Made by a program: the position numbers. From a virus: a stretch of DNA of 64,000 bases. Shown here in pieces: positions 45,001 to 48,000 of the stretch. Within the stretch, counting starts at the first letter, position 1. Each line of letters starts with the position of its first letter. The stretch lies in the UHGV virus genome UHGV-0180032; one strand, 5' to 3'.

Positions 45001-48000
45001 TGCCGGTTCCAGGCTGGATGTCGCAATTGGCGGGAAAATCAAAAGAGGCTCAGTATTCGATCGGGGCTAATCACAATTACAATAAAGATACGCTTATTAA
45101 CTATTTACGTTCCATAGGCTCTACTGCTGTCGTTGTGACCATTACAGGGGATTTAGTGTCTTATAGTAGCGGGGTTCCTTGTTTAGAGTTCCCTAGCAAT
45201 CTTCCAAATTCGTATATTACCCTCATCATCAATCCTGGGGTTACAGTATACGGCAGAGGAGGCAACGGCGGTTCTAACTCACCAGGCGGTGCAGGTGGAA
45301 CCGCAATACAGAACGGAATAGGAAACAGACTGCGTATAACCAACCGTGGCGCTATTGCCGGAGGCGGTGGCGGCGGTGGCGGCGGTAACAGGGGTAGACT
45401 AGTATTTGGTGGTGGCGGTGGTCGCCCATTCGGTGCTGGTGGGTCTTCCTCTCATATGAGTTCCGGTGCGGCTGCTGGTACTATTTCCGCTCCTGGTAGA
45501 GGATCTGTTGGTGAGGGGTCTCTTAGTGCATATACAGGCGGTTCGGGTGGTAATGTCGGTGCTGGTGGAGGAAGATGTAATACTCATGGTAACGGTACAG
45601 AATATAACGGCGGAGCAGCTGGTGCAGCTGTTACTGGTAATGCGCCAAGATGGGACGCAGTAGGTGCAATATACGGTTCACGTGTTTAATTAAAAAAGAG
45701 GGTAGATGGGGGTAGCGTCAGGATGGGTCGGTTCTTCGGCCAAGAGTGAAACGGGCGAACAATGGATGAGCGCTGCTGGTAGTAAATTAGGATTGGGTAG
45801 ACCTTTTATGATGAGCCAAATGGTAGGCAGGTCTGTAGGTTGCAAAATAGCAACAGCTTATTATAAAACGTCAAATACTGATAAGGTAGAGAACTGGGGT
45901 GCTGTCGGAGCCGATTGGCCGTTGGTAGATAAGAACAAAGGAACGCTTTCTGGTGCCTCGAACTGTGGCTTAGGACGTTTAGTGGGGATCGTACTTACGC
46001 AAGCTCACTACGTTGCCGGTGTTCCGCCTACTGCCGCTTTATATATTTCTGGCGGACGGGCGAGTAACATTACGGTGACGGTTGGTGGTGTTTCGCAAGC
46101 ATTTACTTACAATAGTGTTACTAACGGTTTTCACTATTATTGGCAAGGAACACCGAGTTCGGCCTTTATAGCGGCAATGAAGAAGACGGGTGTTACACAA
46201 GATTTGAAAATTAGCTAACTAATTGGGGTAAAACGATAACCAAAATTAGTAAAATAAGAATTCGTAATTCAATAATTTTTTATAGAAAGGTTGATTTATT
46301 AGAATCGGGGGGGGGGTGAAATGTTTTTAGCCAACATTTTATGTCTCCCCAATCATAGGAGGTAACCATACGTGGAACAATTCACGCCTGATTTGTCCTT
46401 AACTTCACTTAACATGGTTATTTCACTGGTTAACCATGACCTCCAGCTCGACTTGCAAGAGAACGAGGTTGAAGTCAGCGACGTAAAGACCAGTGACGAA
46501 ATGGATCGTGACACCACTGCTGTTGTAAAGATAAAACGTCCCGGTAACAGAACGTTACAAATCTATTACAACCGTTTAACCGCAGAACGTTGGTTAAACC
46601 AGCAACCTATTCTGGTACAAGTAGCTGGAGAGGGGTTTAACACACACGATTTAATCGACGGGATTAACGCAGCCTGTGGCAGTAACCTGCAACCTGAAGA
46701 TCTTCAGGACGATTCATTTACAGTAGGAAAAGACGCTGTAACGTTACAGGTATCACCTAACTCCCTAAGTTATAAAGGCCAATTCTCTGTTTTGGTTTTT
46801 GGTAACGGTGAAGAAGCCGCAGTAACAAAAGATGACAACCTAATCGTTACCGCAGATAATCGCGTCTTAACCTTTGGTGGTTAATAGTGGCTGACACGAG
46901 CTACCATCACTTTCAGAAGACATCACTATTAAGCGTCTTACAGGGACAACGCTTTCTCAGAACGGAATGAAATAAATATTAGGTAGTAGGGGCTAAGCCC
47001 CTACTACCTTTCTTTTTTTTTATTTTTTCTCAGATATATATTACCTAGAGGAGAGCGAAATTTACATTCGCTCTATTAGTTATAGCCGAAAGGAGGATTA
47101 GTTCTATCACCCGCATTATCTGTTCTGGTGAATTGGGCGAAGATAAATTAGTTGAAGATTACATTAAGAAGGAAGGGCAATTATGAAACCAAATACTACT
47201 AACGGCATTATGCTACTTTGTGATTCTGAAACGTTAGCAAATCGTATTCGTGGTTTGATGGAAGTACGTTGGAAGCAAAAGGTTCGCGTGGACTATGCTG
47301 CCCCGTTTGTTCACGTTACTTGGTTACCAGAAGCTGACGATTTTAGAGAAAAAATAACCACGAGAAGAATTAAAGATTGGTTATCAGCAATCATTAATAA
47401 ACAGATTACCGTTATCAATTTCCAACTTTTCGGTACCGCTGAAGAACATGAAATCTTGAAACAGTGTTTAAGAGCATTGGCTCTTTCCTTCTCTGTTCGT
47501 GGAAACTGTTACACGACTTATTTTATCGGTTCGCTTGAACTGTTTAAGAATACGCTAATGCTTCAGCTAAAAGACGACTACAAACTTTTAGATAAAATCG
47601 ATTTCGAATTCCCAGCAATGATTTAAGGAGTATAAAATGCATCAGAAATTAATGACTAGTAACAAAGTTCTCCGTTTTAACCAACGTGAGTTAGAAATTG
47701 GCGGAGAACGAATTGGTCGAGTTCGTAATCTTTTAACTGTGTTAGGTTTGGTCGGCGTTACATTTACATACACCGGTAAAATTCTTTACGCGACCTGGGC
47801 TTCATGCGAAAGTGACGCTACCTACGATAAAATTCTCGATGGTATTAAAGACGGCTCGGTTTATTGTAATGTTTTCCGTGGCGTTTCGTACATCGCTGGC
47901 GATAAGTTAATGGATAAACTGAAAGCCAAATACGGAGACGGTATTATCACCACCATCTTCTTTGGTGGCGATATGCTAATCGTAACGAAAAAGGAAATTA

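What the first reader, a model, noticed from the sequence alone, without database searches (positions are those of the whole stretch)
47028..47074. Recurring promoter-like motif TCAGATATATATTACCT followed by a 5' stem-loop
Near-identical copies lie at about 25825, 47028 and 50332, with variants at 4910 and 30865. Each sits immediately after a terminator T-run and is followed within 5 nt by a short perfect hairpin of differing sequence, so structure rather than sequence is conserved there. The core TATATTAC matches, as far as I recall, the early-promoter consensus reported for phiKZ-like giant phages that transcribe with their own RNA polymerase; this would place the window in a chimallivirus-like genome and mark these as early transcription units.
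Basis: partly seen in the sequence, partly recalled or inferred. Interest (0 to 1): 0.6.

Follow-up and report, generated by a model that had tools for sequence, protein, structure and literature searches.

The report
Jumbo-phage early promoters with 5′ hairpins
A 17-base motif found five times in this window is most likely the start signal that a giant SPN3US/phiKZ-like phage's own injected RNA polymerase uses to switch on its first genes. The promoter type is already known; in this lineage most copies also give messenger RNAs that should begin with a small conserved hairpin, a modest addition I did not find described.

Summary
TCAGATA[T/G]ATATTACCT lies at + 25827, 47030 and 50333, with weaker variants at 4908 and 30864. 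These are the only five sites above background in 64 kb; all are on the + strand and intergenic.

The window is an exact piece of an uncultivated SPN3US/phiEaH2-like jumbo phage (IMG/VR contig 3300045988_095954). It encodes a homologue of the phiKZ non-virion RNA polymerase subunit gp123.

The motif matches published early (virion-RNAP) promoter consensuses of phiKZ, 201phi2-1, OBP/N1M2 and AR9 along its length. That includes a conserved G exactly 6 nt after TATATTAY, which is the mapped start position in phiKZ, phiR1-37 and AR9. In SPN3US the same motif precedes the chimallin homologue and all three annotated nvRNAP-subunit gene loci, and none of the four vRNAP genes checked.

The predicted +1 G is usually the first base of a 6–9 bp hairpin with strong covariation and sense-strand G·U pairs. 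That hairpin is absent from 6 of 7 phiKZ sites and from a second, hairpin-less promoter class (AGATAGATATTATCT; the 4908 site).

Verdict: a new member of a known promoter kind. The clade-specific 5′-terminal stem-loop is probably an mRNA stabiliser, and I found no description of it. No transcript data exist for this phage, so start sites and early timing are inferred.

The parts
4857..4880 (+). Intrinsic-terminator-like hairpin (10 bp) plus T-run closing the major capsid gene (2556-4841), directly upstream of the 4908 site
   Evidence: also flagged on the - strand; sequence
4908..4924 (+). Class II (hairpin-less) promoter core TTGGATAGATATTATCA. Predicted +1 is G4929. It heads the operon 5022-6032 / 6043-7818 (nvRNAP subunit) / 7858-9468
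   Evidence: PWM score 23.0 against null maximum 15.9. The orthologous SPN3US sites 72484 and 72682 occupy the same position after the capsid gene. No significant hairpin
6043..7818 (+). Gene for a non-virion RNA polymerase subunit (PHIKZ123 homologue) downstream of the 4908 promoter
   Evidence: PDB 7OGP_E PHIKZ123, E=1.9e-17; PHROG 2943 'polymerase'; syntenic with SPN3US ACQ60_gp189 and Asesino gp94
25791..25810 (+). Terminator-like hairpin (8 bp) plus T-rich tail upstream of the 25827 site
25827..25843 (+). Class I promoter core TCAGATAGATATTACCT. Predicted +1 is G25848
   Evidence: covariance-model hit of 50.1 bits; orthologous to SPN3US 94237, upstream of the HTH gene
25848..25866 (+). 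5'-terminal stem-loop GAGATTAC-gct-GTAATCTC (8 bp), starting at the predicted +1
   Evidence: Orthologues L047, L003 and L012 keep the stem and change only the loop
25902..26261 (+). First gene of the unit: HTH DNA-binding protein, followed by acetyltransferase-like and DNA methyltransferase genes
   Evidence: PHROG 7126, E=2.9e-31, and neighbouring hits
30864..30880 (+). Degenerate promoter core TAAGATATATTTCATCT. Predicted +1 is G30885
   Evidence: PWM score 21.7; 2 mismatches to AGATAKATATTAYCT
30883..30896 (+). Short stem-loop GTGAG-aatt-CTCAC. It is followed by the 89-aa gene at 30920-31189
46981..47009 (+). Strong, bidirectional-looking terminator hairpin (13 bp) plus T-run upstream of the 47030 site
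47030..47046 (+). Class I promoter core TCAGATATATATTACCT (the finding itself). Predicted +1 is G47051
47052..47074 (+). 5' stem-loop AGAGCGAA-atttaca-TTCGCTCT (8 bp), MFE -10.6 kcal/mol
   Evidence: Orthologues L025 and L037 (alignment) and L053 (sequence) carry GTGAA/TTCAC where the window has GCGAA/TTCGC, a compensatory C-G to U-A change
47183..47626 (+). First intact gene after the 47030 promoter (147 aa, no family match). The original first gene of the cassette has been replaced
50333..50349 (+). Class I promoter core TCAGATATATATTACCT with the best upstream element (taataaaaataatt). Predicted +1 is G50354
   Evidence: top PWM score, 57.6
50352..50373 (+). 5' stem-loop GTGAGAGT-tcagct-ACTCTCAC (8 bp), MFE about -12 kcal/mol. 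It is followed by the gene at 50404-50898

Best explanation
These are early promoters of an SPN3US-like jumbo phage, read by the phage's own virion-packaged multisubunit RNA polymerase (vRNAP), not by the host enzyme.

The recognised element is a long contiguous sequence: an A-rich block (gATTAAAAA) at about -30, TCAGA at about -20, and TA(T/G)ATATTA(C/T) at about -10. Transcription is inferred to start at the conserved G exactly 6 nt after TATATTAY (window G4929, G25848, G30885, G47051 and G50354).

Each cassette restarts transcription of a block of small non-structural genes, in three cases just after a terminator that ends the preceding unit.

In the strong 'class I' version (…TATTACCT-AGGT-GAGA…) the first transcribed bases GAGA pair with a downstream UCUY. 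Together with a variable inner stem they form a 6-9 bp stem-loop at the very 5' end of the mRNA. The most likely role of this hairpin is to protect early mRNAs from 5'-end-dependent decay (RNase E / RppH).

The weaker 'class II' version (AGATAGATATTATCT; window site 4908) has no hairpin and a short leader. It drives the operon containing the nvRNAP subunit.

Shown here: motif enrichment, position, orientation, conservation across the clade, homology to mapped promoters, hairpin covariation, and the presence of phage RNAP genes. Inferred: the start site, early timing, the polymerase used, and the hairpin's function.
For: **Enrichment and placement.**
- There are five sites, all on the + strand and all intergenic.

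**Conservation.**
- The exact 17-mer recurs in about 40 distinct sites on 107-246 kb SPN3US/phiEaH2-like contigs and some short fragments. The flanks share the consensus gATTAAAAAtaaTT-[17-mer]-AGGTGAGA.

**Homology to known early promoters.**
- It aligns over its whole length to the published phiKZ, 201phi2-1 and OBP/N1M2 consensuses (PMC7058600) and to AR9's AAATATATATTAT-(6N)-G+1.
- The phiKZ and phiR1-37 start sites lie 6 nt downstream of the consensus element (PMC5312081).
- G occupies that offset in 5/5 window sites, 19/19 SPN3US sites and 7/7 phiKZ sites.

**Genome-wide behaviour in SPN3US.**
- 13 strong and 6 weaker sites were found, all on the + strand; 18 of the 19 lie just upstream of an annotated gene start.
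- They precede the diverged chimallin homologue ACQ60_gp244 (PMC9365700) together with the nvRNAP beta'-like gene (site 15612), the gene pair ACQ60_gp232/gp231 (original gp34/gp35), annotated 'RNA polymerase beta subunit' (site 28967), and the PHIKZ123 homologue (sites 72484 and 72682).
- No site precedes any of the four vRNAP genes checked.
- phiKZ likewise has TATATTAC before PHIKZ054, which is followed by the RNA polymerase subunit gene PHIKZ055.

**Phage polymerase genes.**
- A PHIKZ123 homologue lies in the window.
- A vRNAP large subunit is encoded on sister contigs.

**Downstream genes.**
- They are non-structural or unknown: HTH protein, acetyltransferase-like, methyltransferase, ORFans.

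**Hairpin.**
- Mean MFE is -6.9 against -2.9 kcal/mol for shuffles (p=1e-10).
- 73% of sites have a perfect stem of >=6 bp starting 2-6 nt after the 17-mer, against 10.7% of random positions.
- On 51 distinct sequences, 93.8% of cells are paired against 77.2% shuffled (0/500 shuffles reach it). 7 of 8 pairs show compensatory changes. The covariation score is 0.247, against 0.091 shuffled and <=0.042 with partners slid.
- The closing pair is G.U in 34 sequences and G-C in 13, so the pairing works on the sense RNA and not on the opposite strand.
Against: - No transcript 5' ends or time-course data exist for this phage, and I could reach none for SPN3US. The papers by Ceyssens 2014, Lavysh 2016 and Weintraub 2019 are not held.
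- The vRNAP genes were found on sister contigs, not on the source contig itself.
- Two of the five sites (4908 and 30864) are weak variants whose activity is uncertain. AR9 work shows that a one-base deviation can abolish early-promoter activity (PMC5312081).
- The covariance-model alignment is fitted to the structure, which inflates the pairing percentages.
- The stabiliser role of the hairpin rests only on its geometry relative to a predicted start site and on textbook knowledge of E. coli mRNA decay.
- Many hairpins are followed by 2-4 U, so an attenuator role is not excluded.
Confidence: 0.85

Rival explanations
1. They are host sigma-70 promoters. TATATT would act as a -10 box with a weak -35 (xxGATT) 17 nt upstream, as T4-type phages use for their early genes.
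For: TATATT is one mismatch from TATAAT. The consensus scan flags 50318-50345 (TTAATA-16-TATATT) and 30846-30874 (TTAACG-17-TATATT) at 9/12 matches. Many related sites have GATT about 17 nt upstream of TATATT.
Against: - Sites 47030, 25827 and 4908 have no -35-like element overlapping the motif.
- Sigma-70-like matches are not enriched over shuffles (14 against 8.8±3.5; 6 against 9.1±2.7).
- The strongest conservation lies where sigma-70 reads nothing: the would-be spacer (TCAGATA, and an A at -8 in 40/40 sites) and downstream of the -10 (ACCTAGGTGAGA).
- The homologous motif in phiKZ and AR9 drives rifampicin-insensitive early transcription that is independent of protein synthesis (PMC7598289, PMC13282480).
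Confidence: 0.04
2. The motif is a promoter of the phage's non-virion RNAP (middle or late class), or it is used throughout infection rather than early.
For: Timing was not measured. Two sites sit right after late structural genes (capsid, tail). AR9 has continuously expressed genes with dual promoters (PMC7598289).
Against: - phiKZ middle promoters (a weak AT-rich / TACT motif at about -22 to -24) and late promoters (TATG at +1) look nothing like this motif (PMC7598289, PMC8244752).
- The motif matches the early class in four phage lineages.
- It precedes the nvRNAP genes themselves, which must be made before nvRNAP exists, and it is absent before the four vRNAP genes checked.
- Terminators insulate three of the sites from the upstream late genes.
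Confidence: 0.06
3. The repeats are chiefly recombination or mobile regulatory cassettes, like the PeSLs of T4-type phages. Their conservation would reflect homologous exchange and gene shuffling rather than selection for polymerase recognition alone.
For: - The cassette architecture (terminator, conserved promoter, stem-loop, SD) resembles PeSLs (PMC2839356).
- Directly after the 47030 cassette the original first gene has been replaced. Homology to sister phages runs through the promoter, hairpin and SD and about 30 nt beyond, then stops, and the ATG has become TTC.
- The spacing between the two orthologous cassettes differs: 3303 nt in the window against 3908 nt in L025.
Against: This does not exclude promoter function; PeSLs are also active promoters. 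The position-specific conservation, the fixed G at +1 and the placement before chimallin and nvRNAP genes across genera are explained by promoter function, not by recombination alone.
Confidence: 0.03
4. The hairpin is not an mRNA stabiliser. It could be (a) a DNA-level part of the promoter, as in phage N4 vRNAP hairpin promoters; (b) a 5'-proximal attenuator; or (c) a recognition tag for a phage or host RNA-binding factor (export from the early infection vesicle, translational control, or timed shut-off).
For: - N4 vRNAP recognises DNA hairpins (PMC4496689, by title and abstract only).
- Many stems are followed by UUU(U), and the tool flags 47052-47074 as terminator-like.
- The conserved GAGA/UCUY stem base would suit a sequence-specific binder.
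- How mRNAs cross the EPI vesicle is listed as an open question (PMC13282480).
Against: - (a) The hairpin lies downstream of the predicted start, not upstream. It relies on G.U pairs that would be A.C mismatches on the other strand. Class II promoters and phiKZ promoters work, or are conserved, without it.
- (b) The stems are AT-rich and weak (-5 to -12 kcal/mol), with short U-runs.
- (c) There is no evidence for or against.
Confidence: 0.3

Closest known systems
phiKZ / 201phi2-1 early (vRNAP) promoters, core TATATTAC
   Same: Identical 8-nt core TATATTAC. T-rich/TTT..CAG-like sequence just upstream, and conserved blocks at about -10, -20 and -30. G 6 nt downstream, which is the mapped TSS in phiKZ. 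Intergenic and co-oriented with the genes. Placed before the nuclear-shell and nvRNAP genes (PMC7058600, PMC11512511, PMC5312081).
   Different: The upstream half differs: TCAGATA here, TTTAAACAG in phiKZ. Six of 7 phiKZ sites examined lack a stem of >=6 bp at the transcript start, whereas here and in SPN3US every class I site has one.
Predicted early promoters of OBP and Klebsiella phage N1M2 (TTTCARRYAKATATTATYWAAGTGWA)
   Same: Same register over about 26 nt. TTTCAGATATATATTACCTAGGTGAG fits 23 of 26 positions, including the K at the T/G-variable position and the downstream GTG (PMC7058600 Table 2).
   Different: Those have TAT rather than TAC, as class II here does. No hairpin is reported, and I did not test those genomes.
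AR9 early promoter AAATATATATTAT-(6N)-G+1
   Same: Near-identical AT core and identical 6-nt spacing to a G start, mapped experimentally (PMC5312081).
   Different: AR9 is a uracil-DNA, non-nucleus Bacillus phage. No GAGA start or hairpin is reported.
PeSLs (promoter-early stem-loops) of T4-type phages
   Same: Repeated intergenic cassettes that combine a terminator stem-loop, a strong early promoter and an SD. They flank accessory genes and are junctions of gene replacement (PMC2839356).
   Different: PeSL promoters are sigma-70 consensus promoters, and their stem-loop is a G/C-rich terminator placed within or upstream of the promoter. Here the promoter is of the phage-RNAP type and the conserved hairpin is transcribed at the mRNA 5' end.
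5'-terminal stabilising stem-loops of E. coli and phage mRNAs (ompA leader; T7 phi10 leader starting GGGAGA). This comparison rests on my own knowledge and was not checked here.
   Same: A hairpin beginning 0-2 nt from the 5' end, the geometry known to block RppH / RNase E 5'-end-dependent decay. The start sequence is purine-rich.
   Different: The function is untested here. The stem base is sequence-conserved across dozens of unrelated transcription units, which ordinary stabilisers are not.
Phage N4 vRNAP hairpin promoters
   Same: A virion-injected RNAP and a promoter associated with a small hairpin.
   Different: The N4 hairpin is a DNA structure upstream of +1, recognised by a single-subunit RNAP. 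Here the hairpin lies downstream of +1 and the pairing is strand-specific (RNA).

Membership tests
phiKZ-type vRNAP early promoter | Extended, highly conserved AT-rich element (about 10 nt, TATATTAC-like) centred near -10 | tested here: met
   TA(T/G)ATATTAC is present at 3 sites, with TAGATATTAT and TATATTTCAT variants at the other 2. It matches the published consensuses (PMC7058600, PMC7598289) and real phiKZ sites.
phiKZ-type vRNAP early promoter | Conserved start nucleotide (G) 6 nt downstream of the element | tested here: met
   G is at that offset in 5/5 window sites, 19/19 SPN3US sites and 7/7 phiKZ sites. The rule comes from PMC5312081. This tests the sequence feature only.
phiKZ-type vRNAP early promoter | Primary transcript 5' ends map there, minutes after infection, without host RNAP or new protein synthesis | not testable with these tools
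   No RNA data exist for this uncultivated phage, and the SPN3US expression papers are not held.
phiKZ-type vRNAP early promoter | Intergenic, co-oriented with and just upstream of non-structural operons, including the nvRNAP and nuclear-shell genes | tested here: met
   Window: and site 4908 before the PHIKZ123 homologue. SPN3US: sites before the chimallin homologue and all three nvRNAP loci, none before the four vRNAP genes checked (PMC9365700).
phiKZ-type vRNAP early promoter | The genome encodes two split multisubunit RNAPs (virion and non-virion) | tested here: met
   An nvRNAP subunit is in the window. A vRNAP beta'-like subunit, 76-77% identical to SPN3US, is on the sister contigs that carry orthologous promoter sites. 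It was not seen on the 151.6-kb source contig itself.
Chimallivirus (nucleus-forming jumbo phage) genome | phiKZ-type capsid and virion genes; chimallin; PhuZ | tested here: inconclusive
   Capsid protein is 76-80% identical to phiEaH2, Asesino and SPN3US, and there is a PHIKZ128 homologue. Chimallin and PhuZ are not in the window. Asesino and SPN3US form nuclei according to PMC13282480.
Sigma-70 promoter | -35 TTGACA-like hexamer 16-18 nt upstream of a TATAAT-like -10, with no requirement for spacer sequence | tested here: not met
   Only 2 of 5 sites reach 9/12 matches. There is no enrichment over shuffles. The conservation is concentrated in the would-be spacer and downstream of the -10.
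N4-type DNA-hairpin promoter | Hairpin upstream of +1, formed in DNA and required for recognition | tested here: not met
   The hairpin starts at the predicted +1 and depends on sense-strand G.U pairs. Class II sites and phiKZ sites lack it.
PeSL mobile regulatory cassette | Repeated promoter plus stem-loop cassettes at junctions of gene gain, loss or replacement | tested here: inconclusive
   One clear gene replacement lies immediately downstream of the 47030 cassette. There was no systematic breakpoint analysis. The promoter type differs from the sigma-70 promoters of PeSLs (PMC2839356).
5'-terminal stabilising stem-loop | Stem begins within about 0-2 nt of the 5' end and prolongs mRNA half-life | tested here: inconclusive
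   The geometry fits if +1 is the predicted G: of 41 stems, 17 start exactly at that G (offset 21) and the rest at 19-23. Half-life was not testable.

The most novel reading that the evidence does not exclude
The class I 5'-terminal stem-loop, with its sequence-conserved GAGA/UCUY base, may be more than a generic stabiliser. It could be a clade-specific RNA tag that marks immediate-early mRNAs made by the injected polymerase inside the early infection vesicle. A phage or host factor would read it for export to ribosomes, for preferential translation, or for timed shut-off. It would distinguish these mRNAs from the hairpin-less class II transcripts that encode chimallin and the second polymerase.
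Probability: 0.15. Interest if true: 0.65.

Novelty: new member of a known kind. Interest (0 to 1): 0.35.

Why it matters
- **Annotation.** The motif allows early transcription units to be marked directly from sequence in uncultivated SPN3US-like jumbo phages. This window has five, the source contig has at least one more, and SPN3US has about 19. That flags the small ORFan genes behind them as candidate host-takeover or anti-defence genes.
- **Two promoter classes.** The split into a hairpin-bearing class and a hairpin-less class that drives the chimallin and nvRNAP genes suggests a finer regulatory layer within 'early' expression. SPN3US is cultivable and genetically tractable, so this can be tested there.
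- **The stem-loop.** If it works as proposed, it is a compact portable stabiliser for engineered phage or vRNAP-driven constructs.
- **Limits.** None of this overturns current understanding. The promoter type and its polymerase are well established for phiKZ, AR9 and their relatives.

Tried and rejected
- **RNAalifold on an ungapped MAFFT alignment** of 30 sites found only a trivial 4-bp helix inside the invariant motif, because loop lengths differ. MAFFT would not open gaps in the loops. I replaced this with an anchored stem search against random controls and with a covariance model built from nine same-geometry sites.
- **A fixed-register cognate versus non-cognate test** was too rigid: 10 of 32 sites use a shifted register. 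I used it only to list stems and G.U counts.
- **The primary papers are not held:** Ceyssens 2014, Lavysh 2016 and Weintraub 2019. No supplementary TSS tables are held either. The TSS offset therefore comes from PMC5312081 and from phiKZ sequence read directly.
- **Scanning IMG/VR with the 201phi2-1 consensus** gave only 7 loci and was not informative.
- **A PDB sequence search with the SPN3US chimallin candidate** found nothing, and neither did Pfam or NCBIfam. The assignment rests on PMC9365700 ('gp244', which I take to be RefSeq tag ACQ60_gp244) and on synteny with PHIKZ054-055.
- **Window ORF 7858-9468 was checked against the PDB** for a chimallin match; there was none.
- **Rfam and tRNA scans of the window** were empty.
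- **A sixth PWM hit at 2559(-)**, score 10.3, is within the null range and was dropped.
- **Exact 17-mer hits in short or non-jumbo contigs** (L001/L016, L007, L008/L010, L048, and the L019 group) were treated as chance or unrelated and kept out of the statistics. L023 was likewise kept out of the PWM and hairpin statistics, but it looks like a genuine site and was included among the sources searched with the covariance model.
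Full report
**1. The observation**

The 17-mer TCAGATATATATTACCT is present exactly at 47030-47046 and 50333-50349, and with one substitution (T to G) at 25827-25843. That is three hits at up to three mismatches where 0.14 are expected.

A weight matrix built from related sites scores these five at 57.6, 46.5, 46.2, 23.0 and 21.7. The shuffled-sequence maximum is 15.9, and nothing else in the 64 kb on either strand rises above that background. The degenerate core AGATAKATATTAYCT recovers the same five at two or fewer mismatches.

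All five sites are on the + strand. All fall in the 7.8% of the window not covered by an ORF of at least 80 codons. The 8-mer TATATTAC alone is not enriched, so the signal is the longer motif.

Two details were overstated:
- A terminator-like hairpin with a T-run lies directly upstream of three sites (4857-4880, 25791-25810, 46981-47009), not of all five.
- The 4908 site has no convincing downstream hairpin.

**2. What genome this is**

Two IMG/VR loci from contig IMGVR_UViG_3300045988_095954 (151.6 kb) are exact substrings of the window. No GenBank phage matches at the DNA level beyond short tail-fibre modules.

The proteins place it firmly with SPN3US, phiEaH2 and Asesino:
- The 761-aa major capsid protein is 76-80% identical to theirs.
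- Gene order follows SPN3US positions of about 68-144 kb.
- ORF 12937-15132 is a PHIKZ128 homologue.
- ORF 6043-7818 is a homologue of PHIKZ123, a subunit of the solved phiKZ non-virion RNA polymerase (7OGP chain E, E=1.9e-17).

Sister contigs that carry orthologous copies of the motif encode a virion-RNAP large subunit 76-77% identical to the SPN3US protein. SPN3US and Asesino are experimentally nucleus-forming chimalliviruses (PMC13282480).

**3. What the motif is**

Published predicted or mapped early promoters of this phage group are:

| Phage | Consensus | Source |
|---|---|---|
| phiKZ | TATATTAC | PMC7058600 Table 2 |
| 201phi2-1 | TTTRARR_BTATATTACDWHDGTG | PMC7058600 Table 2 |
| OBP / N1M2 | TTTCARRYAKATATTATYWAAGTG(WA) | PMC7058600 Table 2 |
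| AR9 | AAATATATATTAT-(6N)-G+1 | PMC5312081 |

PMC5312081 adds that phiKZ and phiR1-37 start 6 nt downstream of the element. The window's TTTCAGATATATATTACCTAGGTGAGA fits these consensuses in register along its whole length.

In the first 50 kb of phiKZ I found seven TATATTAC copies. All are on the + strand and all have a G exactly 6 nt downstream. One lies upstream of the nuclear-shell gene PHIKZ054, which is followed by the RNA polymerase subunit gene PHIKZ055.

The exact 17-mer also occurs in about 40 distinct sites on 107-246 kb SPN3US/phiEaH2-like IMG/VR contigs and a few short fragments. These include SPN3US (three copies) and phiEaH2 (two copies). The extended consensus is gATTAAAAAtaaTT-TCAGATATATATTACCT-AGGTGAGA. 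Relative to the predicted start this gives conserved blocks at roughly -30, -20 and -10, as described for phiKZ and 201phi2-1 (PMC11512511).

**4. Genome-wide behaviour in a complete relative**

I assembled SPN3US from five 50-kb fetches and scanned it. Thirteen sites exceed the null maximum and six more are just below it. All are on the + strand, and 18 of the 19 lie just upstream of an annotated gene start. G is at the predicted +1 in 19 of 19.

Their positions mirror the window:
- after the capsid gene and before the PHIKZ123 homologue (72484 and 72682; window 4908);
- before the HTH gene (94237; window 25827);
- after the tail gene block (109891 and 113984; probably corresponding to window 47030 and 50333).

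The motif precedes ACQ60_gp244. I take this to be the diverged chimallin homologue reported as 'gp244' in PMC9365700. It is followed by a beta'-like RNAP gene (site 15612). The motif also precedes the adjacent genes ACQ60_gp232/gp231 (original gp34/gp35), annotated 'RNA polymerase beta subunit', which I take to be the third nvRNAP locus (site 28967).

None of the four vRNAP genes checked has a site. This is the pattern expected if the injected vRNAP reads the motif to make the shell protein and the second polymerase, while vRNAP itself is made late (PMC7598289, PMC5312081).

In the window the genes behind the sites are non-structural or unknown: an HTH protein, an acetyltransferase-like protein, a DNA methyltransferase and several ORFans.

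**5. The hairpin**

Across 40 sites the 30 nt that start one base after the 17-mer fold at a mean of -6.9 kcal/mol. Dinucleotide shuffles give -2.9 (p=1e-10), and sequence 100 nt further downstream gives -3.3 (p=5e-6).

Across 41 sites, 73% have a perfect stem of at least 6 bp beginning 2-6 nt after the 17-mer, against 10.7% of random positions in the same loci. Seventeen of the 41 stems begin exactly at the predicted +1 G (GAGA…).

A covariance model built from nine same-geometry sites found 58 sites in the material held. On the resulting alignment (51 distinct rows):
- 93.8% of cells pair, against 77.2% in shuffles (0 of 500 reach the observed value);
- seven of eight pairs show compensatory double changes;
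- the covariation score is 0.247, against 0.091 shuffled and 0.042 or less when partners are slid.

This alignment is fitted to the model, which favours pairing.

Orthologous copies give the cleanest cases. The 47052-47074 stem is GCGAA/TTCGC in the window and GTGAA/TTCAC in sister phages (alignment; sequences). The 25848 stem is invariant while its loop changes (gct, atc, aca).

The closing pair is G.U in 34 sequences and G-C in 13. Allowing G.U raises the share of good stems from 54% to 73%, while the equivalent rule for the opposite strand gives 56%. The structure is therefore selected in the sense RNA, not as a DNA cruciform.

**6. Two promoter classes**

In SPN3US the sites split cleanly:

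| | Class I | Class II |
|---|---|---|
| Sequence | …TATTAC(C/T)T-aGGT-GAGA… | AGATAGATATTATCT |
| Stems | 7 of 7 with at least 7 bp | 2 of 12 with at least 6 bp |
| Leader | long | about 25-35 nt |
| Includes | small unknown genes | all sites before chimallin and the nvRNAP genes |

In the window 25827, 47030 and 50333 are class I. 30864 is a degenerate copy with a 5-bp stem. 4908, which heads the nvRNAP-subunit operon, is class II.

Six of the seven phiKZ sites lack a stem of at least 6 bp. The hairpin is therefore an addition specific to one promoter class of the SPN3US-like clade, not a property of the promoter family. I found no paper in the held library that describes it, though key subscription papers could not be read.

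**7. Mechanism**

Best supported (about 0.85): these are vRNAP early promoters. The start at the conserved G is inferred.

For the hairpin I favour protection of early mRNAs from 5'-end-dependent decay. A stem beginning 0-2 nt from a triphosphate end is the geometry known to block RppH and RNase E in enterobacteria. That point is my own knowledge (work from the Belasco laboratory) and was not checked here. I hold this role at roughly 0.4-0.5. Alternatives are an attenuator, a role in promoter escape, or a tag read by a protein (for export from the EPI vesicle, or for timed shut-off).

The sigma-70 reading is weak. Only two sites reach 9/12 matches, there is no enrichment over shuffles, and conservation is strongest in the would-be spacer and downstream of the -10.

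A PeSL-like role as recombination junctions is compatible with, and additional to, promoter function. Directly after the 47030 cassette the ancestral first gene (MYHPYYLP… in sister phages) has been replaced. Homology ends about 30 nt past the SD, and the ATG has become TTC.

**8. Verdict**

This is a new member of a known kind of element. Two modest additions are the clade-specific, covarying 5'-terminal stem-loop and the two-class structure of the promoters. Start sites, timing and hairpin function remain to be shown experimentally.

Noticed in passing
window 47075-47182 (compare L025:3543-4060 and L037): Gene replacement immediately downstream of the 47030 promoter cassette. Sister phages have SD-ATG and an ORF of >=100 aa (MYHPYYLP…). 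The window keeps the promoter, hairpin, SD and about 30 nt of that ORF, but the ATG has become TTC and the rest is replaced by an unrelated 147-aa gene (47183-47626). This suggests the cassettes act as junctions for modular gene swapping, like PeSLs in T4-type phages.
   Followed up: partly
SPN3US loci L055-L059 (e.g. record positions 15612, 28967, 72484, 72682 versus 56292, 65411, 94237, 113984): Two sequence classes of the early-type promoter. Class I (TATTACCT + AGGTGAGA) has a 5' hairpin and a long leader. Class II (AGATAGATATTATCT) has no hairpin and a short leader, and sits before the chimallin homologue and all three nvRNAP loci. This may reflect two tiers of early expression.
   Followed up: partly
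window 43537-44000 and 45006-45691 (ORFs 40225-44850 and 44898-45689): The distal tail-fibre end and a gp38-like adhesin are 78-90% identical at the DNA level to RB49/JSE/phi1-type coliphages, Escherichia phage CMS-2020a and Yersinia phages. The rest of the window has almost no DNA match in GenBank phages. This looks like a horizontally exchanged receptor-binding module in a jumbo phage and hints at an E. coli-like host.
   Followed up: no
L028:9709-9725 (also L019, L029, L033, L050; 19-51 kb contigs from isolate genomes): The exact 17-mer, with an AT-rich upstream flank and GAGAG just downstream, lies in a prophage- or island-like element. It follows a patatin-like phospholipase gene and terminator, and precedes a 225-aa unknown protein and a DUF932 gene. 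It is probably a chance match: several other non-jumbo hits exist, and vRNAP is thought to be confined to the EPI vesicle. A defence gene wired to a jumbo-phage early promoter would be interesting if real.
   Followed up: partly
SPN3US 56292, 65411, 94237, 113984, 223275; L013, L020, L031, L044, L049, L052: Many class I leaders in SPN3US and the Erwinia phages share a second conserved block just before the start codon, (A)ATCGACTAT(T/C)A…AAGGAG or GACTATCAAGGA. It goes beyond a plain Shine-Dalgarno sequence. It is much less evident in the window's own clade.
   Followed up: no
window 4960-5010: A 16-codon ORF (MEKIHLRLKICTIIKT) with its own SD lies between the class II promoter at 4908 and the first long gene at 5022. 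SPN3US has a similarly placed SD-ATG after its 72484 site. This could be a leader peptide or an unannotated small gene.
   Followed up: no
L022:6037 (same IMG/VR contig, about 1.7 kb upstream of the window start): A sixth class I site of the same phage lies just outside the window. The window therefore under-counts the genome's early promoters.
   Followed up: no
window 59940-62181 (- strand): Two adjacent radical-SAM genes (444 and 305 aa), conserved in the same position in SPN3US (ACQ60_gp103 and gp102). Function unknown.
   Followed up: no
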